From NCBI GenBank assembly GCA_045616185.1, contig JAZLGG010000003.1, forward strand, positions 9,083-73,082: DNA of 64,000 nucleotides, in the 5' to 3' direction. The translations under genes and the position numbers were made by a program. The DNA is from Paludibacteraceae bacterium (GTDB taxonomy: Bacteria > Bacteroidota > Bacteroidia > Bacteroidales > Paludibacteraceae). A model generated the notes under the pieces. It saw only the letters and a list, made by a program, of their open reading frames with translations, did no database searches and was not told the DNA's origin. This document shows positions 5,038-58,100 of the stretch, in pieces (the first letter of the stretch is position 1; every line of letters starts with the position of its first letter).

Positions 5038-5039
5038 CA

Positions 5040-5250
5040 CTTTCCACTTTCCACCTCGAAAATTCGAAAAATCGAGCATTCGATAACTCGGTCCCTCGAA
5101 ATCTTTCCACTCTAAACTAATTCAACAACACTAAACTCTAAACTATCTTCCGAACGCGAGTTAGGGGACGTCAAGGGGACGTCAAGGGGACGTCAGCATC
5201 TTCTCACCCCCTCGAAAATTCGATCCCTCGATCCCTCGATTTCTCGAAAC
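5040..5250. repeat. mosaic word-repeat block (ctttccac, ctcgaaa/ttcgat, ctaaact, ggggacgtcaa words)
   Basis: The entire spacer between convergent folK and trmN6 is built of short tandem words. It shares ttcgataactcggt and cctcgaaaattcg with the 52911-52986 block. Confidence 0.85.
5164..5196 (+). repeat. tandem 11-mer ggggacgtcaa, three copies, each containing the palindrome GACGTC
   Basis: Read directly from the sequence. Degenerate relatives occur at 31430-31462 and 53171-53192. Confidence 0.9.
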
Positions 5251-6045: not shown

Positions 6046-6840
6046 TTAGTGGAAAGTGGAGAGCGGGAAATGGAGAGTGGGGACTTTTCGGGTCGCCAAT
6101 CCGGTGTGCGTTCCGTTGCAAGCCTTCACGTGATGATGGCAATGGTTGTGGCCGTGGCTCTCCAACCCCAAATGGATGCCGAGATACAGGCCGTAACCCA
6201 GGAACAGGACGGCGCAGATATAGCGGAAGCGGTGTTCAAAACGCTGCATCTTCTGCATGAGCGACTGCGCACTGACCATACTGTATGATATGAGCCACGC
6301 TATCAGCAGGATAGGAAGTCCCGTGCCCAGTCCGAACGCCACAGGCATAATCAGCGACTGCGGGAAAGGCATGTCCGATGTAACAGCCGTTTCCACCATT
6401 GTGAAGAAATACATCAGCCGGTGCGGGCAGAAAGCGATGGCGAAAAAGATACCCAGCATAAATGCCCACAACCAACTGGATTTGTCGTCCACAGTCTGGA
6501 GCCACTTGCTCATGCCGTGGTCGTGGTTGTGGTGGTGACGGCCTGCCGCTAACAGGAAAACGCCGCAGACCAACATGAAGACGCACAGCATCGGTTCGCC
6601 CCATTCGTTCAGAAAACGGCGGATGCCGTCCGTCTGTGCCCCTATCATAAAGGGAATGGCCGCCAAGACATAGGTCAGCAGTTTGCCCAAAACAAACATG
6701 AAACCCGTAATCAGCACACGTTTGCGGTTGTTCAGTTCGCGGTCAATATAGCCGACAGCCGCGATGCTGGTGAACAGTGTGCAGGGGTCAAGTATCATCA
6801 AAAAACCCAAAAGGAGTGAGGTGAGGACAGGAAGAATCAT
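6046..6840 (-). CDS. DsbD/CcdA-family (DsbD_2) polytopic membrane protein with His-rich loops; possible metal or thiol transporter
   Basis: Whole track ORF with multiple TM helices. Paired membrane Cys motifs (LDPCTLF and AFCPHRL) typical of CcdA/DsbD_2. His-rich stretches RHHHNHDHG and SHGHNHCHHH. The last ~27 codons are encoded by a dispersed repeat (see findings). Confidence 0.6.
   Translation of the reverse strand: MILPVLTSLLLGFLMILDPCTLFTSIAAVGYIDRELNNRKRVLITGFMFVLGKLLTYVLAAIPFMIGAQTDGIRRFLNEWGEPMLCVFMLVCGVFLLAAGRHHHNHDHGMSKWLQTVDDKSSWLWAFMLGIFFAIAFCPHRLMYFFTMVETAVTSDMPFPQSLIMPVAFGLGTGLPILLIAWLISYSMVSAQSLMQKMQRFEHRFRYICAVLFLGYGLYLGIHLGLESHGHNHCHHHVKACNGTHTGLATRKVPTLHFPLSTFH
6076..6130 (+). 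repeat. dispersed element R1, partial degenerate copy C (inside the 3' end of the minus-strand DsbD_2 gene)
   Basis: agtggggacttttcgggtcgccaatccggtgtgcgttccgttgcaagccttcacg aligns to the right half of copies A and B with a few substitutions. Confidence 0.8.
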
Positions 6841-13438: not shown

Positions 13439-13446
13439 CAAAGATA
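13439..13446 (-). promoter_or_regulatory. -7 box (TATCTTTG) for the GDPD gene
   Basis: Reverse complement of caaagata, 47 nt upstream of ATG 13391. Confidence 0.5.
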
Positions 13447-13472
13447 CAACAAAAATTTGGAGTGCGCAAATT

Positions 13473-13613
13473 TATTGTGCTTTTTGCAGGCAAAAAGGAT
13501 AGATTTATCTATACAAAACGGATTGTATTGTCCGTGTGTTGGGAGTTTACTCACAAAAAGACGGGCAATACAATTGGTTGTACGGCAAAGCCATTTGCCT
13601 GCAAAAGCACAAT
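13473..13613. repeat. nested inverted repeats in the GDPD/NRPS divergent control region
   Basis: Outer arms tattgtgctttttgcagg (13473-13490) and cctgcaaaagcacaat (13598-13613) pair over 16 positions, with one extra unpaired t in the left arm. Inner arms attgtattgtccg (13522-13534) and cgggcaatacaat (13562-13574) give 13 bp with one G-U. Confidence 0.75.
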
Positions 13614-13845
13614 CTTTGCACACTTTAATAAAGATGCGACTGTATTTTCGGGGGAATGCGTGGCGTGGGTATTGTGCGGCTTAGCAGGCGGCGTCCGAAG
13701 GTATAATAAAAATTTGGAATACGCAAATAAATTGCGCATTTTAATAAAGATGCGATTGTGTCGGGATTTTTTTCGCAGGTTGAACGAAGTGTGCAGGTGG
13801 TCCCGAGATGAACACGATGCGGACTCGTGCCCGGTTTGTTTTTTT

Positions 13846-13905
13846 TAGTGGAAAGTATTCTTGGAGTAGTGTGTAGTGGAGTAGTGGAAAGTGTCGCGTT
13901 CGGTA
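13846..13905. repeat. word-repeat block (gtggaaagt, gtagtg/ggagtag words) abutting R1 copy A
   Basis: tagtggaaagtattcttggagtagtgtgtagtggagtagtggaaagtgtcgcgttcggta. The same words occur at 6047-6075 next to R1 copy C. Confidence 0.8.
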
Positions 13906-14066
13906 ATTGGGTGGCTGTCGCCGGCGTGACCGCGATCAAACACCCCACTCGACAAGTCTCGTCGGGGGCCCCGTAGGTCGCGCTATTCTATGCGGGCGAC
14001 TGTTTCATCAAAGTGGGGACTTTTCGGGTCGCCCACTCGGCGTGCGTTCCGTCGCACGCCTTCACG
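13906..14066 (+). repeat. dispersed structured element R1, copy A (upstream of the NRPS promoter)
   Basis: Aligns with 54846-54998: attgggYggctgtcgccggcgtgaccgcga ... ggtcgcRctattctatgYgggYgactgtttcMtcaaagtggggac.t.tcgggtcgcccactcggcgtgcgttccgtcgcacgccttcacg. Contains the hairpin ggcgtgcg-ttccgt-cgcacgcc (14039-14060) and the stem gggcgac/gtcgccc (13994-14000 / 14028-14034). It has ~40 extra nt relative to copy B. Confidence 0.85.
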
Positions 14067-14107
14067 AGAAACTTAACTTAAAATTTGCGTATGCGAATTT
14101 TATTTAT

Positions 14108-14115
14108 TAACTTTG
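14108..14115 (+). promoter_or_regulatory. -7 box (TAACTTTG) for the NRPS gene
   Basis: TAnnTTTG match, 23 nt before ATG 14139. The same aaatttgcgtat...ttattaaYtttgcac module sits upstream of secA. Confidence 0.6.
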
Positions 14116-14138
14116 CACACTTTTACAAACCAGCAGTT

Positions 14139-17100
14139 ATGACATACCCGATAAATCAAAGCCAATTGGGCGTGTACTACGCCTGCCAATCGGACGGCAT
14201 AGGCGATTACGTCATCTACCGTCTGTTCCGTCTGGGCAAAGAGGTTGATAAAGACCGCCTGAGTCGCGCCATTGGACAAGCCGTGCATAACCATCCACAC
14301 CTCTTTGACACCATCGTTACCGACGAAGCCGGAGAGCCGGTTTGGAAGGTAGCGGAAAGTGCGAACGCGTTCGTTCAAAAAGAGTGGAAAGTGGAGGAAG
14401 TGAACAGCAGGGAGGCGTTGGAAAAAGATTGGGAGGAGAAAATGCCGATGGGATGCCGGCTGTTCAATATTCGGCTGATGGACACCGGCGAGGCGTTGCT
14501 GTGCCGCATTGCCATCCACCACATACTGGCCGACGGCATGTCATTCGGTATCCTATGCGACGACATCAGCCGCGCCTATAACGGCGAGCCGCTCGTTCCC
14601 GAATCGGTTGATGCACGCGCCCTGAACGTTGCGGAGGAAAAGAAACGGCAAAGTAAGGTCTATGCCGAAGAGAAAGCGTGGTACGAACAGACCTTCGGCG
14701 GGGTGGAGAGTGTGTCGCTGCCGTTGCGGGACTTGTATGCGGAAGGTGAGGAACATTACCAAACGGTATGGCGGGAAATGAGTGTCCGCCGCGAAGAAAT
14801 AAAAGAACTGTGCGCCGCTACGCAGACGGGTACGAGTATCCCGTTCACCGCCGCCTTTGCCCTGATGCTGCACGCTTTCACGGGTGACGAGCAGGTGTCG
14901 TACGCGTCGTTCTACCACGGGCGCGGAACAGGGTGTAAAGGAGTGGAGAACACAGTGACGATGGCGGTGCGGACGCTGCCGATGCTGAACGATTTGGTAC
15001 AAGTAAGGACTGTCGGGGAAATGATGCAGCAAACGGCACAAATAGTCAAGACCTTGCGCGAGAAAGACAGTGTCGGTTTTGGCGAGGTATGCGCCCTGAG
15101 CGGCATGAACAGCGAAGTGTCGTTCATTTATCAAGGCAGTATCATTGATTACACGCTGCATCTGGACGGCAAGGACTACCCGATGGAGGACATACGCAAG
15201 AACCGGCCCGGACTGAAGATAAGTGCCCAGATGATGGAGCATGACGGCGCATACAGGTTGCGTTTTGAATACCCCGCACACGAGTACAGCGAGTGCATGG
15301 TGAACGAGATGTTGGACACATACGACGAAGTACTGCGGCAGATGACAGGACGAGGTGCCGACCTTGCGCTGGCAGACCTGCACTATTGCACCGAACGGCA
15401 GACGGCCGAACTGGACGCATTCAACCGCCACGAAGACGACACCTTTGCCGAATGGGAGGGTGAGACGGTGCTGAGCCGGTTCCGACAGATAGTTGCACGT
15501 TACCCCAATCAGATAGCCGCCGTGTTCGGGGACAAAAAATTTACCTACCGTGAACTGGACCAATTGACTGACCGGATGGCGGAGAAAATAGTGGAGAGTG
15601 CGAACGCGTTCGTTCAAAAAGAGTGGAAAACGGAAAGCGGCAAGTTGCCGGTGGTGAGTATATTGATTCCGCGATGCGAACAGATGTTCATCGCGCCGCT
15701 TGCGGCGATGAAAACCGGATGCACCTATCAGCCGCTTGACCCGAGTTATCCGAAAGAGAGACTGAATTTCATGGTCAAAGACGCAGCGTGCCGGTTGCTG
15801 ATTACCACGGATGAACTGAGCGGACTGATAGACGAACCGGTGAAGAGGCTGGTGTATGATGGAACGTGGAGCGAAGGGAATAGCGGAATAGTGTGTGGAG
15901 GAATAAAGGCGGAAGATACAATGATTTTGTTGTACACGTCCGGTTCAACGGGCGTGCCCAAGGGGGTGATGCTCAGCCACAGAAACATACTGGCCTATAT
16001 TCATTGGTATATCAAACATTACAGCCTGAACAGCGAATCGCGCATAGCAGCCTACGCCAGTTTCGGCTTTGACGCCAACATGATGGACATGTATTCGGCG
16101 CTGCTGTCGGGCGGCACGCTGTACGTTATCCCTGAGGAGATACGGCTTGACCTGATGGCTTTAGGCGATTTCTTTGACCGCAACGGCATTACCTGTGCCT
16201 TCATGACAACGCAAGTGGGGCAGCAGATGATGGGCAACTACGACTCGCTCAAGACCTTGCAGCATTTGTCTATCGGCGGCGAAAAGATGATGTCTATGCC
16301 GTTGCCGACCGGTTACACGATGCACAATATATACGGTCCGACCGAATGTTCGGTGGCTATCACGGAAAAGACCGTGATCGAGAACGAGCCGAATATACCG
16401 ATAGGATGTCCGACAGAGACCACGCGGTTATATGTCGTTGACAGGTACCTGCACCGTTTGCCTATCGGTGCAGCCGGCGAACTGATAGCCTCGGGGCCGC
16501 AGGTGGGGCAGGGTTACCTCAACCGCCCCGACAAGACGGCAGAGGCGTTCATCCGCATAACGGTCAACGGCCAAGAGGAACGGTGTTACCGCACGGGTGA
16601 CATCGTGCGGTATCGCCCTAACGGAGACATCGAGTTCGTCGGACGAAAAGACGGCCAAGTCAAAATACGCGGTTTCCGCATCGAACTGAAAGAAGTGGAG
16701 GCGGTAATACGCGAATACGAGGGCATCAAAGATGTGACAGTGCAAGCCTTCGACTACCCCGACGGTGGCAAATATATCGCTGCATACATCGTGAGCGACA
16801 CAAAAACGGACATTTCGTCCCTAAACGATTTCATATTGGACCGCAAACCGCCGTATATGGTGCCGGCGGTAACGATGCAACTGGAGCACATCCCGCTGAA
16901 CGTCAATCAGAAAGTGGACAAGAAAGCATTACCCAAACCGCAGGTAGAAAGTAGTGCGTCCACCACGCCGTGTACGTTGCCGATGAACACTTTGGAGAAA
17001 AAACTGCACGAAATGATAGCCGGCATTGTCAAGAACGGAGATTTCGGTCTGGCCGACGTATTGGCGTTCTACGGATTGACTTCCATCTCGTGCATCAAAC

Positions 17101-20100
17101 TGGCGACCTTGCTGTACAAACAGTACGGTGTGATGATAGACGCCAAGACTTTTGTCAAGACGGGAACGCTGCGCGATATTGAGGAGGCGATATTGGAGAA
17201 ATGGATGGCAGGTGAGCCCGCTGCAACTGTCTCAGAAACGGAGCAGGCTGACGGACAAACCGGCGTGTGCGCACTGAGCAACGCGCAATTGGGCGTGTGC
17301 TACGAATGTATGAAGGACGAATCGGCTACGACATACAACGTGCCGATGGAGATTGTTTTTCCGGACTCGGTCCGTGCGGAAGATATCAAGAAAGCGGTGG
17401 AGCAGGCCGTTGTTCTGCATCCGTTATTACGAGCGCACTTGTGTCATGACGGCGGCGACATCGGTTTGACGACCGACACCGGACTGACAATTACATGCGA
17501 CATCGTACAGGAGCCGGTGGAGGAACTGAAGAAAACTTTTGTCCGTCCGTTCCGCCTGTTTGACGGTCCGTTGGTGCGTGCCGCCGTAACGGGGCATACG
17601 CTACTGTTGGATGCCCACCATTTGGTGATGGACGGCGGCTCGTTAAGTGTACTGATGCACGATGTATGCGATATACTGAACGGTCAACCGGTACAGCGCG
17701 AGGACTATGATTTCTTCCGCTATGTGCGTGACGAACAGCAGGCTGACACGACAGGACAAGAAGCATATTTTGAAAGCCAACTGAAGACAGTGGACGACTC
17801 GTCGTCTCTGCCGGAAGACCTGATGGGCAAAGAGCAGGAAGGTGTGATAGGCATCGTTTGGCAACCGCTTCCGATGGCGGAGATAGAGGCCTTCTGCCGT
17901 ACGCAAGGCATCACGCCGGCGGTGTTCTTCCTTGCCGCCACGGAGTATATGATAGCCCGCTACACCAATAGCCGCGACGTTCAACTGTGCACCATCTCTT
18001 CGGGGCGCAGCAACGTCAAGATAGCCAATACGGTGGGTATGTTCGTAAATACGCTGCCGCTGGTGGGGCATATAGACGACATCCGTGTGGCTGAGTTCCT
18101 GCAACGGGTAGGGGACAATTTCACCCGCACGCTGCAAAACGAGAACTATCCGTTTGCCAAGATAGCCGCCAAATACGGTACCCGTGCGGATATCGTGTAT
18201 GAATACCAAGTGGGCGTTGTGGACCGCTTTGAGGTGAGCGGCGCACCGGTAAGCGTGGACAGTTTCGGACTGGAGATTGCCAAGTTCAAGGCGGCGGTCA
18301 AGATTCAAGAACATGAAGGGCAAGTGTGCATCAAGATGCAATACAACGACGCCCTTTATTCGCGCGACTATATGGAGCGTTTTGCGGACTCGATGAAGGC
18401 CGTGTGTCTGCGTTTCATGGCTTCGCCGGACCAGCCGTTACGCAAGGTGTCCATTATGAGCCAAAAACAACAGGAGGAAGTGGCCAAACTGCACACGGTG
18501 GCTCAAGCGGATATACCCGTCCAGATTGTCTATCAGCCGCTGGAACGCTGGGCGGTGGAAACGCCGGACAAGACCGCTCTGATAGCAGTGGACGGCACCT
18601 ACACCTACCGCGAACTGAATGCACGTATCAACCGCATCGCGCATACACTGATAGCCAAGGGTGTCCGTCGTGGCGACCGCGTGGTGGTTCTGTTGCCGAG
18701 AACGAGTGCGGTGATATGTTGTCTCTACGGAGTAAGCAAGACGGGGGCTGCCTATATACCGTGCGACCCCGCCTATCCTGCCGACCGAATCAAACTGATT
18801 ACAGAGGATTCGGGTGCCAAATACGTCATTACCACGCAAGACAAAGCTGCCGAATACGGTGAGAAAGCCATTATAGCGGACGAACTGATGAACAACACGG
18901 CGGCGGATACCAATCCGAACACGGATGTCCAACCCGACGACACCGTCTATATGATATACACATCCGGCTCGACCGGACGGCCGAAAGGGGTTATTCTGCG
19001 TCACAAGGGCATTTGCAACCACAATACGGCTCACCCGTGCAACCGGCATATCTATACGGCGGCCACGGAGGGACACACGTTCCTTGCCGTGACGACCTTG
19101 TCGTTTGACATGTCGCTGAAGGAATACAGTGCGACGCTGTTCAACGGGCAGACGCTGGTGCTGGCCGGTGACGACCAGAGCAACAACCCGTTGGAACTGG
19201 CCAAACTGTTCCTTGCGACCGGTGCGGACGTGTTCAACGCGACGCCGTCGCGCCTGCTCAACTATATGGAGTCGGAAGATTTTTGTGAGGGGTTGCGCCG
19301 CTGTAAAGCCATCTATTCGGGTGGCGAACCTTATTCGGACCGTCTGTTGGACCGTCTGCACGGACTGACCAAAGCGCGTATCTTCAATACTTATGGCCCG
19401 ACGGAGACGACAGTGTCATGCAACGTAGCCGAACTGACGCATACCGACCGCATCTCTATCGGCGAGCCGCTGCTGAACGTCACAGAGTTTATCGTGGATA
19501 TTGACGGCAACGAACAGCCTGTGGGCGTCGTTGGCGAACTGTATATTGGCGGCGAAGGCGTCGGCAAGGGTTACAATAACCTGCCGGAACAGACGGCCGC
19601 ACGCTTTATCGAGTACCGCGGCATGCGCGTTTACCGTTCGGGCGACTATGCACGTTGGTTACCGGACGGCAAGGTGGTGACCCTGGGTCGCATGGACAAC
19701 CAAATCAAATTGCGCGGACTGCGTATCGAGTTGGGCGAGGTGGAAGCCGCGGTCAGCCGCTACCCGGGCATCAAACAGGTGACGGTGATGGTGCGGACGC
19801 TGAACGGCAAGGAGCATTTGGCGGCCTATTTTACTGCCGACCGCCCAATAGACGTTAACGAACTGAAGACCGAGGCAGGCAAGACCCTGACACCGTATAT
19901 GGTGCCGACCGCTTACCTGCAACTGGATGCGTTCCCCCTGACACCGAACGGCAAGACGGATATCAAACACCTGCCTGAACCGGTGATTGTGCAGACGTCC
20001 GGCGAATATGTGGCTCCTGCCAATCAGGCGGAAAAGGATTTCTGCGACATCTTCAAGAACGTGTTAGAACTGGACAAGGTGAGTGCCACGGAGTCGTTCT

Positions 20101-21506
20101 TTGAACTGGGCGGTACATCGTTGGTGGCAACGCGTGTGCTGATAGAGGCTACGCGGTTGGGCTATGCGTTGGCGTATGCGGACATCTTCAGTCATCCGTC
20201 GCCAAGGGAGTTGGCTATAGCGGCCGGCGGGGACACCCCACAACCGGCTGTGAATGATGCGGCAAGCGTAAAAAATGACGAGGGCAGTATCGTGAATCCA
20301 AAGAATGACGATGCCGTCAATAACTACGATTACACCGCCATCAACGACCTGCTGCAAAAGAACACGTTAGACTCGTTCCGCCAAGGCGAGTGTTTGCCCT
20401 TGGGCGATGTGCTGCTGACAGGTGCGACCGGTTATCTGGGAATACATATCTTCCGCGAACTGATGGAACATTATCCCGATACGAAGATACACTGTCTGTT
20501 GCGCCCCAAACGCGGTATATCCGCCGCAGAACGGTTGCGTCAGATGCTGTATTATTATTTTGAGACGAACTACGCCGAAGCGTTCGGCAGCCGCGTCTTT
20601 GTATATGAAGGCGACGTGACCGCCCCGATAAATGTGGATGTCCCTGTAGATACAGTCATCAACTGTGCCGCTATCGTCAAACATTTCAGTGAAGGCACGG
20701 AGATAGAGGATATCAATATCGGCGGAGTGAAGAACTGTATCGACTACTGCCTCAAGACGGGTGCGCGGTTCATTCAGACCAGTACCTGTTCCACGGGCGG
20801 TACCAGTATCAACGGATTCCCCGACCCGTCCATGCATTACAGTGAGCAGACCCATTACATGGGGCAGTGCCTGACGGGTAGCAAGTATGTCTATTCCAAG
20901 TTCCTGGCCGAGCGGATGACGTTGGAGGCTGTTATAGAGAAAGGGTTGGTAGCGAAGGTAGTCCGTTTGGGCAACTTGGCGGCACGTGCGCAGGACGGCG
21001 AGTTCCAAATCAATTTCCGCACCAACAGCGCGATGGGCAGGCTGCATATCTTCCAGATGTTAGGCCGGTGTGGCTATACACAGATGGCATCGCAGATGGA
21101 GTTCTCGCCGATAGACGAGGTGGCGCGCGCGGTAGTGCTGCTGGCTACCGCACCGAAGGAGTGCGTCATCTTCCATCCGTTCAACAACCACATAGTGCTG
21201 TTGGGCGATGTGATACAGGAGATGGCGAAAACACTGCATTCGCCGGTGGATTTTGTGGAAGACAATGTTTTCCAAGAGACACTGATGCAGGCCGGACAGG
21301 ACCCCGAAAAAGCCAAGATACTGCAATCGATGTTGGCGTACAAGGCAGCCGGCAAGGACGTTGTAGTTCCTTATACGAAATACAACCCCTACACTATACA
21401 GGTACTGGCGCGGCTCGGTTTCCGCTGGAACATGACATCGTGGGACTATGTGCAACGGTTTATCCGCGCTATATCGTCGTTGGACTTTTTCCAAGACCAT
21501 AGGTAA
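14139..21506 (+). CDS. bimodular non-ribosomal peptide synthetase with terminal thioester reductase (C-A-T-C-A-T-R)
   Basis: Track ORF 14085..21506(+). Start moved to ATG 14139 (MTYPINQSQLGVYY), 23 nt after a TAACTTTG box. Approximate domains: C1 14139-15420 (HHILADG 14517-14537); A1 15466-16940 (LLYTSGSTGVPKG 15927-15965, GRKDGQVKIRGFRIEL 16641-16688); T1 16975-17200 (Ser 17082-17084); C2 17271-18480 (HHLVMDG 17616-17636); A2 18520-19985 (MIYTSGSTGRPKG 18951-18989); T2 20000-20225 (GGTS, Ser 20118-20120); R 20400-21503 (GATGYLG 20421-20441, YVYSK 20886-20900). Confidence 0.95.
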   Translation: MTYPINQSQLGVYYACQSDGIGDYVIYRLFRLGKEVDKDRLSRAIGQAVHNHPHLFDTIVTDEAGEPVWKVAESANAFVQKEWKVEEVNSREALEKDWEEKMPMGCRLFNIRLMDTGEALLCRIAIHHILADGMSFGILCDDISRAYNGEPLVPESVDARALNVAEEKKRQSKVYAEEKAWYEQTFGGVESVSLPLRDLYAEGEEHYQTVWREMSVRREEIKELCAATQTGTSIPFTAAFALMLHAFTGDEQVSYASFYHGRGTGCKGVENTVTMAVRTLPMLNDLVQVRTVGEMMQQTAQIVKTLREKDSVGFGEVCALSGMNSEVSFIYQGSIIDYTLHLDGKDYPMEDIRKNRPGLKISAQMMEHDGAYRLRFEYPAHEYSECMVNEMLDTYDEVLRQMTGRGADLALADLHYCTERQTAELDAFNRHEDDTFAEWEGETVLSRFRQIVARYPNQIAAVFGDKKFTYRELDQLTDRMAEKIVESANAFVQKEWKTESGKLPVVSILIPRCEQMFIAPLAAMKTGCTYQPLDPSYPKERLNFMVKDAACRLLITTDELSGLIDEPVKRLVYDGTWSEGNSGIVCGGIKAEDTMILLYTSGSTGVPKGVMLSHRNILAYIHWYIKHYSLNSESRIAAYASFGFDANMMDMYSALLSGGTLYVIPEEIRLDLMALGDFFDRNGITCAFMTTQVGQQMMGNYDSLKTLQHLSIGGEKMMSMPLPTGYTMHNIYGPTECSVAITEKTVIENEPNIPIGCPTETTRLYVVDRYLHRLPIGAAGELIASGPQVGQGYLNRPDKTAEAFIRITVNGQEERCYRTGDIVRYRPNGDIEFVGRKDGQVKIRGFRIELKEVEAVIREYEGIKDVTVQAFDYPDGGKYIAAYIVSDTKTDISSLNDFILDRKPPYMVPAVTMQLEHIPLNVNQKVDKKALPKPQVESSASTTPCTLPMNTLEKKLHEMIAGIVKNGDFGLADVLAFYGLTSISCIKLATLLYKQYGVMIDAKTFVKTGTLRDIEEAILEKWMAGEPAATVSETEQADGQTGVCALSNAQLGVCYECMKDESATTYNVPMEIVFPDSVRAEDIKKAVEQAVVLHPLLRAHLCHDGGDIGLTTDTGLTITCDIVQEPVEELKKTFVRPFRLFDGPLVRAAVTGHTLLLDAHHLVMDGGSLSVLMHDVCDILNGQPVQREDYDFFRYVRDEQQADTTGQEAYFESQLKTVDDSSSLPEDLMGKEQEGVIGIVWQPLPMAEIEAFCRTQGITPAVFFLAATEYMIARYTNSRDVQLCTISSGRSNVKIANTVGMFVNTLPLVGHIDDIRVAEFLQRVGDNFTRTLQNENYPFAKIAAKYGTRADIVYEYQVGVVDRFEVSGAPVSVDSFGLEIAKFKAAVKIQEHEGQVCIKMQYNDALYSRDYMERFADSMKAVCLRFMASPDQPLRKVSIMSQKQQEEVAKLHTVAQADIPVQIVYQPLERWAVETPDKTALIAVDGTYTYRELNARINRIAHTLIAKGVRRGDRVVVLLPRTSAVICCLYGVSKTGAAYIPCDPAYPADRIKLITEDSGAKYVITTQDKAAEYGEKAIIADELMNNTAADTNPNTDVQPDDTVYMIYTSGSTGRPKGVILRHKGICNHNTAHPCNRHIYTAATEGHTFLAVTTLSFDMSLKEYSATLFNGQTLVLAGDDQSNNPLELAKLFLATGADVFNATPSRLLNYMESEDFCEGLRRCKAIYSGGEPYSDRLLDRLHGLTKARIFNTYGPTETTVSCNVAELTHTDRISIGEPLLNVTEFIVDIDGNEQPVGVVGELYIGGEGVGKGYNNLPEQTAARFIEYRGMRVYRSGDYARWLPDGKVVTLGRMDNQIKLRGLRIELGEVEAAVSRYPGIKQVTVMVRTLNGKEHLAAYFTADRPIDVNELKTEAGKTLTPYMVPTAYLQLDAFPLTPNGKTDIKHLPEPVIVQTSGEYVAPANQAEKDFCDIFKNVLELDKVSATESFFELGGTSLVATRVLIEATRLGYALAYADIFSHPSPRELAIAAGGDTPQPAVNDAASVKNDEGSIVNPKNDDAVNNYDYTAINDLLQKNTLDSFRQGECLPLGDVLLTGATGYLGIHIFRELMEHYPDTKIHCLLRPKRGISAAERLRQMLYYYFETNYAEAFGSRVFVYEGDVTAPINVDVPVDTVINCAAIVKHFSEGTEIEDINIGGVKNCIDYCLKTGARFIQTSTCSTGGTSINGFPDPSMHYSEQTHYMGQCLTGSKYVYSKFLAERMTLEAVIEKGLVAKVVRLGNLAARAQDGEFQINFRTNSAMGRLHIFQMLGRCGYTQMASQMEFSPIDEVARAVVLLATAPKECVIFHPFNNHIVLLGDVIQEMAKTLHSPVDFVEDNVFQETLMQAGQDPEKAKILQSMLAYKAAGKDVVVPYTKYNPYTIQVLARLGFRWNMTSWDYVQRFIRAISSLDFFQDHR
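14358..14390 (+). repeat. 33-nt exact intragenic repeat, copy 1 (in frame, encodes SANAFVQKEWK in NRPS domain C1)
   Basis: agtgcgaacgcgttcgttcaaaaagagtggaaa is identical to 15597-15629. Confidence 0.95.
15597..15629 (+). repeat. 33-nt exact intragenic repeat, copy 2 (in frame, between A1 core motifs A1 and A2)
   Basis: Identical to 14358-14390. The offset is 1239 nt (413 codons). Confidence 0.95.
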
Positions 21507-48984: not shown

Positions 48985-49016
48985 CCACTTTCCACCTTCC
49001 ACTTTTCACTTTCCAC
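48985..49016. repeat. word-repeat block (ccactttccaccttccacttttcactttccac)
   Basis: Lies between the esterase stop and the PIG-L start. Same ctttccac word as at 5041-5056 and 52803-52816. Confidence 0.8.
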
Positions 49017-53720: not shown

Positions 53721-54872
53721 ATGGAAAAATTATTATCAATCATTATTCCTTGTTACAATGTAGAGAACTTTATCCTTTCGTGTTTTGAGCATTTGAAGAA
53801 GATCCCGCTTCAGCCAAATGAATATGAGATTATCTGTTATAACGATTGCTCTACTGATAACACGTTAAATATCATTGAAGAGGCTGCTCAAATTATATTC
53901 AATATTAGAGTTATTCAAGGAACTATTAATATAGGTCCCGGTGGTGGCAGAAATGTAGCTTTAAAGAATGCTTTTGGAAAATATGTGTGGTTCGTTGACG
54001 CCGATGATATTGTGCTTCCAGAGATTATTTCTGCCATGTTAGGGCTTATTAAGAAAGATTGTTTGGATGTCATTCCGTTTAATTACAAGGATATTGACGC
54101 GTCTGGTAATGTAATCGCAGAGCCGATTGTATTTAAGGATACTGCAATAATGAATGGTCTTGAATTTGTTGAGTACGTATTTCAAGAAAGCATCATATAT
54201 CACATGGGATATCCTTGGCACTTTTTAGTACGAAGAGAGTACTTGATTCAAAATGATTTGTTCTTTCCAGAAAATATCCGTTATGGAGAAGATACCGTCT
54301 GGATGCCGCAGATTTTGCTTTTGGCCTCTAAGGTAGCTAGTACTTCTACGTTTGGTTATATGTATCGTCATCATAGTCAAAGTACGTGCGGAATGTTTGA
54401 CAAATCTTATCCGGGAAGAACTATATATGAACGTTGCTTTGTAGCAAGTGAGTTGTTGATTTCATTTGCAAACAATTTAGAAGAGACTATCCACGACGAC
54501 CGCATCAATAAATATGTTCAAGCGTTTCGTAAATCAGCCAGCCATTATTATTTGGGGAAACTCCCGATATACCTTAGCAGAACTTCGATAGAACAACGGC
54601 AAGTATTTTTTAGTTATCTGAAGGAACATAAGTATAATAAAACTCATTGTCCCTTATATCCCATTCCTATCAAGAGTGATTATTTGCCCTATTATCGGAC
54701 GTATAATGGCAAATGGGCTTGCCTTCATGTACAAACTCAAGCATTAATTCTAACAAAAAAACGTACCTTTCGAACGTCGCCTTTCAGTAATTTGGATTCC
54801 AAAGTTCTTTCTTTTAGTGCGCCCTCTCGCTACCCTGTACGCTCGATTGGGCGGCGGCTGTCGCCGGCGTGA
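53721..54872 (+). CDS. family 2 glycosyltransferase (low-GC gene)
   Basis: Whole track ORF. LSIIIPCYNVENF, NDCSTDNT, FVDADD (DxD). One sampled line is about 40% GC, against about 57% in neighbouring secA. The last 8 codons lie in dispersed repeat copy B. Confidence 0.85.
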   Translation: MEKLLSIIIPCYNVENFILSCFEHLKKIPLQPNEYEIICYNDCSTDNTLNIIEEAAQIIFNIRVIQGTINIGPGGGRNVALKNAFGKYVWFVDADDIVLPEIISAMLGLIKKDCLDVIPFNYKDIDASGNVIAEPIVFKDTAIMNGLEFVEYVFQESIIYHMGYPWHFLVRREYLIQNDLFFPENIRYGEDTVWMPQILLLASKVASTSTFGYMYRHHSQSTCGMFDKSYPGRTIYERCFVASELLISFANNLEETIHDDRINKYVQAFRKSASHYYLGKLPIYLSRTSIEQRQVFFSYLKEHKYNKTHCPLYPIPIKSDYLPYYRTYNGKWACLHVQTQALILTKKRTFRTSPFSNLDSKVLSFSAPSRYPVRSIGRRLSPA

Positions 54873-54998
54873 CCGCGAGGGTCGCACTATTCTATGTGGG
54901 TGACTGTTTCCTCAAAGTGGGGACCTGTCGGGTCGCCCACTCGGCGTGCGTTCCGTCGCACGCCTTCACGGTCTTTCCGTCGCACGCCTTCACGGTCT
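54846..54998 (+). repeat. dispersed structured element R1, copy B (3' end of GT2, upstream of the secA promoter)
   Basis: Same element as 13906-14066. Carries an exact 24-nt tandem duplication, ttccgtcgcacgccttcacggtct (54951-54974 and 54975-54998). Confidence 0.85.
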
Positions 54999-55115: not shown

Positions 55116-58100
55116 ATGAATTTTATAGAATTGATAACGAAACTGTTCGGCAACAAAGCGCAAAAAGACATGCGCGAGATTATGCCGTTTGTGGAACGAA
55201 TCAACGCCGTCTATGGCGAAATAGACGCATTGGACAACGACGCCCTTCGCCAACGCAGTGCCGCTTTGATGCAGAAAATAAACGAAGCGGTGGCTCCAGA
55301 CAAAACACGCATTGCCGAACTGAAAAACGGCATCGAGGAATTGGAAATAGACAAACGTGAAAAAGTCTATGGCGAAATAGACAAGCTGGAAAAGGATATC
55401 AAGGAGACCTATAAACAGGTGCTGGAAGACATCCTTCCGGAAACCTTTGCCATCGTCAAATCTACCGCCCGCCGTTTTGCACAAAGTGAACGCATTGAGG
55501 TGACTGCCACACAGATGGACCGCGACCTGGCGGCCGATACGCGCTTTGACTTCGTGGAGATAGAGGGGGACAAAGCCGTCTATTTCAATCATTGGACCGC
55601 TGGCGGCAACGAGGTGACCTGGGATATGGTGCATTATGACGTACAGTTAATCGGCGGTGTGGTACTGCATCAGGGCAAGATAGCCGAAATGGCTACCGGT
55701 GAAGGTAAAACCCTGGTAGCGACACTGCCGGTCTTCCTGAACGCAATGACGCACGAAGGCGTGCATGTGGTCACCGTGAACGATTACCTTGCCAAACGTG
55801 ACTCCGAATGGATGGGGCCGTTGTACATGTTCCACGGACTGACGGTTGATTGTATTGACAAACATAAACCCAACAGCGACGAGCGCCGCAAGGCATACGC
55901 CTGCGACATCACCTTCGGCACAAACAATGAGTTCGGTTTCGACTACCTGCGCGACAATATGGCGACCAGCCCGCTGGACCTTGTGCAGCGCGGACATAAC
56001 TTCGCCATCGTGGACGAGGTGGACTCCGTATTGATAGACGATGCACGTACCCCGTTGATTATCAGCGGACCTATCCCCAAGGGCGAGGACCAGATGTTTG
56101 ACGAATATAAACACCGCGTTGAACTGTTGGTCCGCACCCAGACGACCTTGACCACCAAACTGCTGGCGGAAGCGAAAGCCAAAATGCCCTCGTCCGACGA
56201 AAAAGAACGCGAGGCCGGCGAACTGGCCCTGTTCCGCGCCTTCAAGGGTATGCCTAAATCCAAGGCGCTTATCAAATATCTGAGCGAAACGGGAGTGAAA
56301 GTGCGGCTGCAGAAAACGGAAGAGTTTTACCTGCAAGAGAACGAGAAAAACATGCACATCGCTACCGACGAACTCTATTTCGTTATTGACGAGAAAAACA
56401 AGTCCATCGAACTGACCGACAAGGGTATAGATACTTTGACAGGCAATACGGACGACCCCGAATTCTTTGTTCTTCCCGATGTCGGCAGCGAGATAGCCGA
56501 ACTGGAGAAACAGACGCTTACTGCCGAGGAGAAACAGCAGCGTAAAGACGAGATATACGCCAACTATAGTGTCAAGAGCGAGCGCGTCCATACTGTAAAC
56601 CAGTTGCTGAAAGCCTACACGTTGTTCGAGAAAGATGTCGATTACATCATTGACAACAACGAAGTCAAGATAGTTGATGAGCAGACAGGCCGTGTGATGG
56701 AGGGCCGTCGTTGGAGTGACGGACTGCATCAGGCGGTGGAAGCCAAGGAGAATGTCAAGGTGGAAGGCGCAACACAGACCTTTGCAACCATTACGCTCCA
56801 GAACTACTTCCGTATGTACAATAAACTGAGCGGCATGACCGGTACAGCCGAAACGGAAGCGGGCGAGTTTTGGAACATCTATAAACTGGACGTGGTGGTC
56901 ATTCCTACCAACAAACCCATCGCGCGTATAGACATGAACGACCGGATTTACCGCACCAAGCGCGAGAAATACAATGCGGTCATTCAGGAGATAGTCAATC
57001 TGGTGGAGGCGGGCCGTCCTGTCTTGGTCGGCACAACGAGCGTCGAGATAAGCGAACTGCTGAGCAAGATGCTCACGATGCGCAAGATACAGCACAACGT
57101 ATTGAACGCCAAACTGCACCAGCACGAGGCAGAAGTTGTAGCACAGGCCGGTAGGCGCGGCGTGGTTACCATCGCCACGAACATGGCGGGTCGCGGTACC
57201 GATATCAAACTGACACCCGAAGTGAAAAAGGCGGGCGGACTGGCCATTATCGGCACCGAACGCCACGAAAGCCGTCGTGTGGACCGTCAGTTGCGCGGAC
57301 GTTCCGGACGTCAGGGCGACCCGGGAAGCAGCGTGTTCTTTGTCAGCCTTGAAGACGACCTGATGCGTATGTTCGGCTCCGAGCGCATCGCCGGCATCAT
57401 GGATAAGATGGGCTTTGAAGAAGGGGAGATGATTGAACACTCCATGATATCCAAGAACATCGAGAAAGCGCAGAAAAAAGTGGAGGAGAACAACTTCGGC
57501 ATCCGTAAGCGCTTGATTGAATACGACGATGTCATGAACCAGCAGCGTAACGTCATCTACGCCAAACGTCACCACGCCTTGATGGGCGAGCGCATCGGCG
57601 TGGACATCACTAATATGGTTTACGACACCGCGGAGAGCATTATAGCCGATGCACGCGGTGCGATGGATTACGAGTCGCTGCAATACAACGTGATGCAAGT
57701 GTTCGCGATGGAAGTGCCGTTTGACGAGGATACTTTCCGTGGCTCGCGCGAGGAGAAACTGTCGGAAGAACTGGCGGTGGCGGCTATTGAGACCTTCAAA
57801 CGCCGTATGGATAAACTGATGCAGACTGCCGACCCCGTCATCCAGAAAGTGTACGAGGAGAAAGGCTCGATGTACGAAAACATCTTGATTCCTATCTCGG
57901 ACGGCAAGCGGGTCTATAATATTGCGGTCAATCTCCGCAAAGCATCGGAAACGAACAGCCGCGAAGTGGTCAAGGAGTTTGAGAAACGCATGCTGCTGTT
58001 TGTTATTGACGATGAGTGGAAAGAGCATCTGCGCCAGTTGGACGAACTCAAACACAGTGTACAAAACGCCAGTTACGAACAGAAAGATCCGTTGTTGATT

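What the first reader, a model, noticed from the sequence alone, without database searches (positions are those of the whole stretch)
14358..15629. Exact 33-nt sequence inserted in frame at two unrelated positions of the NRPS, built from the genome's intergenic repeat words
agtgcgaacgcgttcgttcaaaaagagtggaaa occurs identically at 14358-14390 and 15597-15629, 413 codons apart. Both copies are in frame and encode SANAFVQKEWK, with similar flanks (V-A-E / I-V-E before).

Copy 1 lies in the N-terminal lobe of condensation domain C1. Copy 2 lies in the loop between adenylation core motifs A1 (FTYRELD) and A2. The host domains are non-homologous, so this is not domain duplication.

Compare module 1 (RMAEKI-VESANAFVQKEWKTES-GKLPVVSILIPR) with module 2 (RIAHTLIAKGVRRGDRVVVLLPR). 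Module 1 carries roughly 12-15 extra residues exactly there.

The insert shares words with the intergenic mosaic repeats. agtggaaagtggag occurs at 6048-6061, and ggaaagtg(t)cgcgttcgg at 13886-13904.

This resembles the in-frame insertion of Rickettsia palindromic elements into protein genes. I am not aware of that being described for Bacteroidales or for NRPS genes.
Basis: partly seen in the sequence, partly recalled or inferred. Interest (0 to 1): 0.65.

Follow-up and report, generated by a model that had tools for sequence, protein, structure and literature searches.

The report
Self-copied 33-base patch inside NRPS gene
An 11-codon piece of a gut-bacterial peptide-synthetase gene was copied once, in frame, into a tolerant surface loop 1.2 kb further along the same gene; it is a local copying accident, not a mobile repeat element, and is of modest interest.

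Summary
The 33-mer AGTGCGAACGCGTTCGTTCAAAAAGAGTGGAAA occurs exactly twice in the window, at 14358-14390 and 15597-15629. Both copies are in frame in one C-A-T-C-A-T-R NRPS gene of a Bacteroidales genome.

The mobile-element reading does not hold.
- Site 1 (C1 domain, between motifs C2 and C3) is not an insertion. All 138 homologues have residues there.
- Site 2 (A1-A2 loop) is a true insertion of exactly 11 codons. The loop is 22 aa here against a family mode of 11.
- No third copy exists in the window, in the two public contig collections scanned, in 154 homologous loci, or in contigs of the four runs whose matching pieces were listed in full.
- Similarity to intergenic repeats is within chance.

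Contigs about 90% identical, from ten other runs, all carry the exact 33-mer at site 2. The nine whose site 1 was recovered have a diverged site 1 (21/33 identical in the one reconstructed).

So the insertion is old. The perfect identity here is best explained by a later short-patch copy from site 2 back onto site 1, by ectopic conversion or template switching. A 12-14 bp perfect palindrome is kept in both versions through paired changes, and GYGGRR words abut the junctions. Both fit template-switch mutagenesis. The element is real but ordinary in kind.

The parts
14139..21506 (+). NRPS gene, C-A-T-C-A-T-R (terminal reductase), 2455 aa, host of both copies
   Evidence: ORF. Pfam finds Condensation x2, AMP-binding x2, PP-binding and NAD_binding_4. 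Homologues at 32-42% aa identity occur in gut and rumen MAGs.
14358..14390 (+). Copy 1 (site 1): 11 codons SANAFVQKEWK, aa 74-84, in the C1 N-lobe between motifs C2 and C3. This is a native position and probably the converted recipient in this lineage.
   Evidence: homologues fill the same columns; the nine more distant relatives whose site 1 was recovered have a diverged version here (21/33 identical in the reconstructed X2 allele); pLDDT is below 50 over aa 74-106.
15597..15629 (+). Copy 2 (site 2): the same 11 codons, aa 487-497, inserted in the loop between the A1 helix and the strand before A2
   Evidence: the loop is 22 aa against a modal 11 aa (96 of 139 sequences); the 33-mer is exact in eight of the nine runs examined directly and has one change (15607 C>T) in X1. 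In X4, one search shows only its first 18 nt; coil 489-504, pLDDT below 50 at 492-501.
14362..14373 (.). 12-bp perfect palindrome CGAACGCGTTCG inside copy 1. The relatives have ACGGATGCATCCGT at the same place.
   Evidence: The changes are paired: 14364/14371 A-T to G-C, and 14366/14369 C-G to T-A. Simulation gives P of about 0.003-0.018.
15601..15612 (.). The same 12-bp palindrome inside copy 2
14352..14357 (+). GCGGAA, a GYGGRR word abutting the left end of copy 1
   Evidence: GYGGRR occurs 33 times in the 7.4-kb gene, about 1 per 223 nt.
14391..14396 (+). GTGGAG, a GYGGRR word abutting the right end of copy 1
15591..15596 (+). GTGGAG, abutting the left end of copy 2 (GTGGGG or GTGGTG in relatives)
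15630..15635 (+). ACGGAA, abutting the right end of copy 2 (GCGGAA in all relatives)

Best explanation
The 33-mer is a piece of the gene itself, not an element from outside.

Step 1 (inferred). In an ancestor of this clade, the 11 codons of the C1 domain between motifs C2 and C3 were copied once, in frame, into the helix-to-strand loop between A1 and A2 of the next domain, 1239 nt downstream. This was a non-tandem templated insertion. It arose by template switching or microhomology-guided repair, with breakpoints at GYGGRR words.

Step 2 (shown). The loop tolerates length changes, and the insertion was inherited by all sampled relatives.

Step 3 (shown for the relatives). The source stretch at site 1 then diverged to 21/33 identity.

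Step 4 (inferred). In the lineage of this genome and its closest relative X1, a second short-patch copy event overwrote about 33 nt of site 1 with the site-2 sequence. This ectopic gene conversion or template switch restored perfect identity.

The short perfect palindrome in the patch probably helps stall and misalign replication. It is itself kept perfect by intrastrand template switching.

No function for the repeat is required. The protein simply tolerates it in two poorly ordered surface segments.
For: - Only two copies exist, both in this gene.
- The degenerate and exact pattern found nothing in genome contigs or metagenome contigs, nor in 154 homologous loci.
- In runs X1, X2, X6 and X7, the only contigs matching the 33-mer are the two NRPS sites.
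- Site 1 columns are filled in all homologues. The window is only 3 residues longer between the GE and LF anchors (my count).
- The site 2 loop is 22 aa against a modal 11 aa, a gain of exactly 11 codons.
- Orthologue contigs about 90% identical were seen in ten further runs (X2-X11). Site 2 carries the 33-mer in the nine covered there (X4 partial; X5 not recovered). Site 1 is diverged in the nine covered there (X9 not covered).
- Site 1 was reconstructed in full for X2 only. Its allele, TGTACGGATGCATCCGTTCAGGAGACGTGGCAA, is 21/33 identical and in the same frame.
- Differences between the window and X2 cluster in the patch. There are 13 in 34 nt against 9.6% gene-wide (P = 8e-6).
- X1 has the 33-mer at site 1 except for C at 14388, the state of the diverged allele.
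- The palindrome is kept through paired changes.
- The AF2 model puts both copies in segments with pLDDT below 50, and site 2 in coil.
- Template switching at quasipalindromes that makes them perfect is established in E. coli (PMC7202029).
Against: - No relative with an empty site 2 was found. The nearest outgroups are only about 42% identical, so neither the insertion step nor its direction was observed.
- If the site-1 patch is wholly unconstrained and neutral divergence is about 0.25-0.3 per site, 13 differences in 34 nt is not extreme (P = 0.06-0.19). The cluster alone therefore does not prove conversion.
- The aromatic F conserved in homologues is present in the 33-mer but not in the diverged allele.
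- Conversion between 64%-identical 33-nt stretches with unrelated flanks cannot be ordinary RecA recombination.
- The junction microhomology is short, and its geometry does not fit a simple one-switch model.
- The rest of this genome, and its own reads, could not be examined.
Confidence: 0.55

Rival explanations
1. There was a single recent duplication. Site 1 of a window-like strain was copied into site 2 only recently, which explains the 33/33 identity. The insertion then spread to the other lineages by homologous recombination. The diverged site 1 of the relatives is simply a fast-evolving orthologous loop.
For: - The exact repeat equals the inserted length.
- Divergence around site 2 is low, at 8 in 201 nt, against about 10% gene-wide.
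- Site 1 lies in a variable segment with low pLDDT.
- 13 differences in 34 nt is compatible with full neutrality.
- The window keeps the family's conserved F.
Against: - The insertion would have had to sweep across lineages about 10% diverged, in samples from at least five studies, with no evident benefit.
- The bases immediately flanking the insert (15595, 15630) differ between the window and every relative. That is not expected for a recently imported tract.
- X1 carries C at 14388, like the diverged allele, but A at site 2.
Confidence: 0.15
2. The duplication is ancient and the sequence is kept identical by selection on the nucleotide sequence itself. The 33-mer, with its palindrome, would be a functional DNA or RNA site, such as a protein-binding site, pause site or hairpin. 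It would be needed at both places, and the relatives would have lost it at site 1.
For: - Site 2 shows no change within the 33 nt in the eight runs covering it in full, apart from X1's single 15607 change, while the bases just outside vary with three alleles at 15595.
- The palindrome is retained through compensatory changes at site 1.
Against: - The predicted hairpins are weak and no better than shuffles (-4.3 and -6.0 kcal/mol, z about 0.2-0.5).
- Covariation argues against a base-specific protein site.
- Distant homologues have no palindrome there (2 of 138 against a 5% background).
- No further copy of the palindrome occurs in promoters of the window.
- Zero changes in 33 nt is unremarkable at the local 3-4% divergence (P = 0.26-0.37).
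Confidence: 0.12
3. A small palindromic mobile repeat, RPE- or MITE-like and related to the genome's intergenic repeats, inserted in frame at both sites.
For: - It is in frame at both sites and contains a palindrome.
- GYGGRR words flank it, and the related word GTGGAAAGTG is 8 times over-represented in intergenic tracts of the window.
- Site 2 is a true insertion.
Against: - Site 1 is not an insertion.
- There are only two copies anywhere examined.
- Similarity to the intergenic repeats is at chance level.
- The GTGGAAAGTG at 14384 is a junction by-product that relatives lack.
- There are no terminal inverted repeats and no target-site duplication.
- It is 33 nt long, against about 150 bp for RPEs (PMC10969869).
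Confidence: 0.04
4. The repeat is an assembly artefact or a chance match.
For: The window's own reads could not be inspected. No run holds more than 37% of its words.
Against: - A chance 33-nt exact match is excluded (0 in 100 shuffles).
- Independent contigs from run X1 carry both copies at 32/33 each, with window-type flanks.
- Nine more runs carry the 33-mer at site 2.
- The gene is collinear with its homologues.
Confidence: 0.02

Closest known systems
Short templated insertions and ectopic short-patch gene conversion by replication template switching, including quasipalindrome-associated template-switch mutation (Ripley model; E. coli work of the Lovett laboratory, PMC7202029, PMC6357072)
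   Same: - The donor is identifiable in cis about 1.2 kb away.
- The length gained equals the copied tract.
- Base differences from the orthologue are clustered.
- A perfect palindrome evolves by paired changes.
- Only short purine-rich microhomologies lie at the junctions.
   Different: - The event was not observed, only inferred from comparison.
- It is a direct, non-tandem copy between two non-homologous protein domains that stays in frame.
- The junction words are arranged in a way a single switch does not explain.
Rickettsia palindromic elements (RPEs) and other intragenic MITEs (PMC10969869)
   Same: A short palindrome-containing sequence is found in frame inside a protein gene, at a place the fold tolerates.
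   Different: - RPEs are about 150 bp, belong to families with tens of copies in unrelated genes, and are absent from orthologues at each site.
- Here the sequence is 33 nt with two copies in one gene.
- One of the two sites is native sequence.
Concerted evolution and gene conversion between modules of NRPS/PKS genes (PMC4256081)
   Same: Intragenic copying homogenises stretches within one megasynthase gene. An example seen here is L017, where a 43-nt exact stretch is shared by the equivalent A-domain loops of modules 1 and 2.
   Different: The known cases involve homologous domains recombining over long identical tracts. Here a C-domain stretch and an A-domain loop share nothing but the patch.
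Gut-microbiome C-A-T-C-A-T-R NRPS family making dipeptide aldehydes and pyrazinones (Guo et al. 2017, as cited in PMC8210680)
   Same: - The host gene has the same domain order with a terminal reductase.
- Its homologues are in gut and rumen Bacteroidales and Clostridia.
   Different: - Membership is judged by architecture and 32-42% identity only.
- The product was not determined.
- This concerns the host gene, not the repeat.

Membership tests
RPE / intragenic MITE-like repeat | Many dispersed copies in unrelated genes or intergenic DNA of the genome | tested here: not met
   There are two copies, both in one gene. None is elsewhere in the 64-kb window, in the contigs of runs X1, X2, X6 and X7, in the GTDB species genomes or JGI metagenomes, or in 154 homologous loci. 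Caveat: the rest of this genome was not available.
RPE / intragenic MITE-like repeat | Each occupied site is empty in orthologues or homologues (true insertion) | tested here: not met
   This is met at site 2 (+11 aa against the modal loop). It is not met at site 1, where all homologues have residues in the same columns.
RPE / intragenic MITE-like repeat | Length about 100-150 bp, with extended palindromic structure or terminal inverted repeats and a target-site duplication | tested here: not met
   The element is 33 nt, with only a 12-bp central palindrome. The fold is weak, with z about 0.2-0.5. The flanks GTGGAG and ACGGAA are not a duplication.
Templated insertion / ectopic short-patch conversion (template switching) | A donor sequence is identifiable nearby on the same molecule | tested here: met
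   The 33/33 match lies 1239 nt away in the same gene. The relatives' site 1 is still 21/33 identical, in frame.
Templated insertion / ectopic short-patch conversion (template switching) | The length gain at the recipient equals the copied tract | tested here: met
   The loop is 22 aa against a modal 11 aa (96 of 139 sequences). The exact repeat is 11 codons.
Templated insertion / ectopic short-patch conversion (template switching) | A cluster of differences from the orthologue is confined to the tract | tested here: met
   There are 13 differences in 14357-14390 against 9.6% gene-wide (P = 8e-6). The test is weaker if the patch is fully neutral (P = 0.06-0.19).
Templated insertion / ectopic short-patch conversion (template switching) | Microhomology at the junctions | tested here: inconclusive
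   GYGGRR words abut all four junctions, at a frequency of 1 per 223 nt in the gene. The 5' flanks are 9/15 identical (P = 0.015). The motif was defined after seeing the data, and the geometry is not that of a simple switch.
Diversity-generating retroelement (template and variable repeat) | Differences between the repeats fall at adenines of the invariant copy | tested here: not met
   Of the 12 differences between the 33-mer and the diverged site 1, 5 are at non-adenine positions (my count on the sequences). The repeat is also far shorter than known template repeats.
Diversity-generating retroelement (template and variable repeat) | A reverse transcriptase gene lies next to the repeats | not tested
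   Only the immediate neighbours were scanned: GDPD, RsmE-like methyltransferase, PAP2, FtsX permease, aminotransferase, GDH and histidine kinase. None is a reverse transcriptase.
Gut dipeptide-aldehyde NRPS family (host gene) | Two modules ending in a reductase: C-A-T-C-A-T-R | tested here: met
   Pfam domains in order. Homologues are of similar length in gut and rumen MAGs.
Gut dipeptide-aldehyde NRPS family (host gene) | The product is a dipeptide aldehyde or pyrazinone | not testable with these tools
   This needs expression and chemistry.

The most novel reading that the evidence does not exclude
GYGGRR words (GTGGAA, GTGGAG, GCGGAA) may be preferred breakpoints for template switching or recombination in this Bacteroidales lineage. 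The same words build the intergenic GTGGAAAGTG tracts. On this reading the palindrome-bearing 33-mer is a recurrently self-copying patch. It would be a small-scale mechanism that seeds new loop sequence in proteins and keeps the copies in step. Alternatively, the invariant 33-mer is a functional nucleotide-level site kept at two places in the gene.
Probability: 0.1. Interest if true: 0.6.

Novelty: new member of a known kind. Interest (0 to 1): 0.3.

Why it matters
This is a clean natural example of how a protein loop can acquire new residues. An in-frame ectopic copy of 11 codons came from another, non-homologous domain of the same gene, and the copies were apparently re-homogenised later.

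For NRPS engineering, it marks the A1-A2 loop as a site that accepts at least 11 extra residues. Several family members carry independent length changes there.

For genome scanning, it is a caution. An exact in-frame repeat with a palindrome can look like an RPE-type mobile element but turn out to be a one-off local copying event.

It does not open a new class of element.

Tried and rejected
- **Close orthologues in the protein collections.** The word-indexed search gave nothing above 30% identity. The exhaustive representative search was swamped by multi-module NRPSs and showed no close relative. The window's own NRPS and GDH proteins are not on record.
- **Intermediate relatives.** The genome and metagenome contig scans returned nothing above 42% identity over the near-full-length query, although short partial matches reached 45-54%. 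No empty site 2 in a near relative could be found.
- **Shared origin with intergenic repeats.** Rejected by the shuffled-query alignment test.
- **Functional RNA hairpin.** The fold is weak and not better than shuffles.
- **Conserved palindrome across the family.** Absent.
- **Donor for the relatives' diverged site-1 patch elsewhere in the window.** None found.
- **DGR-type mutagenesis.** The differences are not adenine-specific.
- **Site 1 of run X3.** The aligner preferred the site-2 piece. The alignment breaks at 14356 in X3, X4, X5 and X8. X5 and X8 then read the diverged sequence, and the same state is inferred for X3 and X4.
- **One-switch model.** I tried to fit one to the junction words and could not. 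The words flanking the source and the target are in crossed order.

Full report
**Observation**

The 33-mer AGTGCGAACGCGTTCGTTCAAAAAGAGTGGAAA is present exactly at 14358-14390 and 15597-15629 on the + strand. It occurs nowhere else in the window, even with three mismatches, and no shuffle gave a match. The copies are 1239 nt (413 codons) apart. Both read SANAFVQKEWK in one ORF, 14139-21506. Ungapped similarity runs over 51 nt at 88%. The patch contains the 12-bp perfect palindrome CGAACGCGTTCG.

**Host gene and organism**

- The ORF is an NRPS with the order C-A-T-C-A-T-reductase. It sits alone among housekeeping genes.
- A neighbouring glutamate dehydrogenase is at best 88% identical to proteins of Bacteroidales, Muribaculaceae and Paludibacteraceae MAGs. 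The genome is therefore Bacteroidales, without a close sequenced relative.
- The window's own proteins are not in the protein collection.
- Full-length assembled homologues of the NRPS are only 32-42% identical. They come from gut and rumen Bacteroidales, Clostridia and others. By architecture this is the family reported to make dipeptide aldehydes and pyrazinones (Guo et al. 2017, as cited in PMC8210680).

**The two sites against 138 homologues**

- Site 1 lies between C-domain motifs C2 and C3. Every homologue has residues in the same columns: window SANAFVQKEWKVEEV against, for example, L001 TADEFHTPVIEVNDI.
- Between the conserved GE and LF anchors, the window is only 3 residues longer. 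Site 1 is therefore native sequence, not an insertion.
- Site 2 lies between A1 (FTYRELD) and A2. The stretch from the helix end to PVVS is 22 aa here and 11 aa in 96 of 139 sequences. The gain is exactly the 11 codons of the repeat.
- Other family members have independent length changes in this loop, so it tolerates indels.

**Close relatives from public runs**

- Thirteen runs hold words of this gene. One, X1, is a metatranscriptome with 37% of the words. The others, from four further studies, hold 6-8%.
- Contigs about 90% identical (216 substitutions and 2 gaps in 2164 nt) span both sites without large indels.
- At site 2, eight of the nine runs examined directly (X1-X3, X6, X7, X9-X11) have the 33-mer unchanged. 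X1 has one change, 15607 C>T. In X4, only its first 18 nt were seen.
- The adjoining bases vary. Position 15595 is A, G or T. Position 15630 is A in the window and G elsewhere.
- At site 1, nine of the ten X2-type runs (all but X9, where site 1 was not covered) carry, or break into, a different sequence. Reconstructed from X2, it reads TGTACGGATGCATCCGTTCAGGAGACGTGGCAA (CTDASVQETWQ), which is 21/33 identical to the 33-mer and in the same frame.
- X1 has the 33-mer at site 1, except that 14388 is C, as in the diverged allele.
- Differences between the window and X2 are concentrated in the patch. There are 13 in 34 nt against 9.6% elsewhere (P = 8e-6). If the patch were fully neutral at 0.25-0.3 per site, this falls to P = 0.06-0.19.

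**Is it a dispersed element?**

No evidence supports this.
- A degenerate pattern covering the exact 33-mer and all synonymous forms of ANAFVQKEWK found nothing in 185,579 species genomes or in the JGI metagenome contigs.
- The core is absent from the 154 fetched loci.
- In runs X1, X2, X6 and X7, the only contigs matching it are the two NRPS sites.

The words shared with intergenic DNA are real. The word GTGGAAAGTG is strongly over-represented in short intergenic tracts, 8 occurrences against 0.14 expected. However, the best local alignments of either 56-nt unit to the rest of the window score 28 and 25. These fall inside the range of shuffled queries, 21-31. The GTGGAAAGTG at 14384 straddles the end of the patch and the native flank. 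It depends on A at 14388, which X1 and the X2-type strains lack, so it is a by-product.

**Palindrome**

Where the window has CGAACGCGTTCG, the diverged allele has the 14-bp perfect palindrome ACGGATGCATCCGT. Two arm positions changed on both sides: A-T to G-C and C-G to T-A. Simulation gives P of about 0.003-0.018 for keeping a perfect palindrome after 12 random changes.

The RNA hairpins are weak and no better than shuffles. Distant homologues show no palindrome there. I read this as a mutational signature rather than a selected structure. The likely process is intrastrand template switching at quasipalindromes, which makes them perfect (PMC7202029). This is an inference.

**Structure**

An AlphaFold2 model of residues 1-854 has mean pLDDT 80.8 and pTM 0.80. 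It has pLDDT below 50 at 74-106, which contains copy 1 (74-84), and at 492-501, inside copy 2 (487-497). Copy 2 lies in coil 489-504, between helix 470-488 and strand 505-509. Both sites are plausibly tolerant surface segments.

**Interpretation**

What is shown:
- Two copies only.
- One native site and one true 11-codon insertion.
- The insertion is shared by every relative covered at site 2.
- The native site is diverged in most relatives, but identical to the insert here.

What is inferred is an old templated insertion from site 1 into site 2, followed in this lineage by a short-patch copy from site 2 back onto site 1.

Three rivals remain:
- A single recent duplication that then spread by recombination. 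The different bases directly flanking the insert in every relative argue against this, as does the need to cross lineages about 10% diverged.
- Nucleotide-level selection keeping an ancient pair identical. There is no structural or regulatory evidence for this.
- A mobile element. This is largely refuted.

GYGGRR words abut all four junctions, at 1 per 223 nt in the gene. They may have supplied microhomology, but I could not fit their crossed arrangement to a one-switch model. This remains unexplained.

**Limits**

- The relatives' sequences were reconstructed from difference tables of Logan contigs, not read directly.
- No outgroup lies between 42% and 90% identity, so the order of events is inferred.

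Noticed in passing
window 13895-14067, 54842-54972, 6046-6130: This is an intergenic repeat family of about 85-170 nt with three copies. The shared core is GTGGGGAC(T/C)T(T/G)TCGGGTCGCC...GGCGTGCGTTCCGTCGCACGCCTTCACG. One copy lies just upstream of the NRPS start and another just upstream of the ORF starting at 55116. It may be a shared leader or promoter-proximal element.
   Followed up: partly
window 5038-5054 (-), 6049, 13884, 48103 (-), 48986-49016 (-): Short tracts are built from GTGGAAA-like heptamers. The word GTGGAAAGTG occurs 8 times against 0.14 expected, mostly at gene ends. GYGGRR hexamers are also strand-biased in the window, with 219 on + and 123 on -.
   Followed up: partly
window ~5163-5196: A tandem triplet of GGGGACGTCAA lies in an intergenic region.
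   Followed up: no
window 13441-13485, 13698-13742, 14081-14118: A 45-nt direct repeat (80% identical) lies 257 nt apart in the region upstream of the NRPS. An inverted partner overlaps the start of the ORF (D6, I1, I2).
   Followed up: no
L017 (Prevotella sp. RUG126), about 2130 and 5213: This homologue's unusually long A1-A2 loop in module 1 shares a 43-nt exact stretch with the equivalent loop of its module 2. This is conversion between homologous domains at the same loop.
   Followed up: partly
L080 (JASGVX010000089.1): A 33%-identical homologue of this NRPS sits on a contig of a MAG labelled Methanobacteriota archaeon. This is either cross-domain transfer or a binning error.
   Followed up: no
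window 15594-15596 and 15630-15632: The codons directly flanking the site-2 insert are polymorphic among strains: GAG/GGG/GTG and ACG/GCG. The 33 nt between them are invariant except for X1's single 15607 change.
   Followed up: partly
run X1 over window 14317-16199: Contigs of a metatranscriptomic run cover much of the 5' third of the NRPS. This suggests the gene is expressed in that community, although DNA carry-over cannot be excluded.
   Followed up: no
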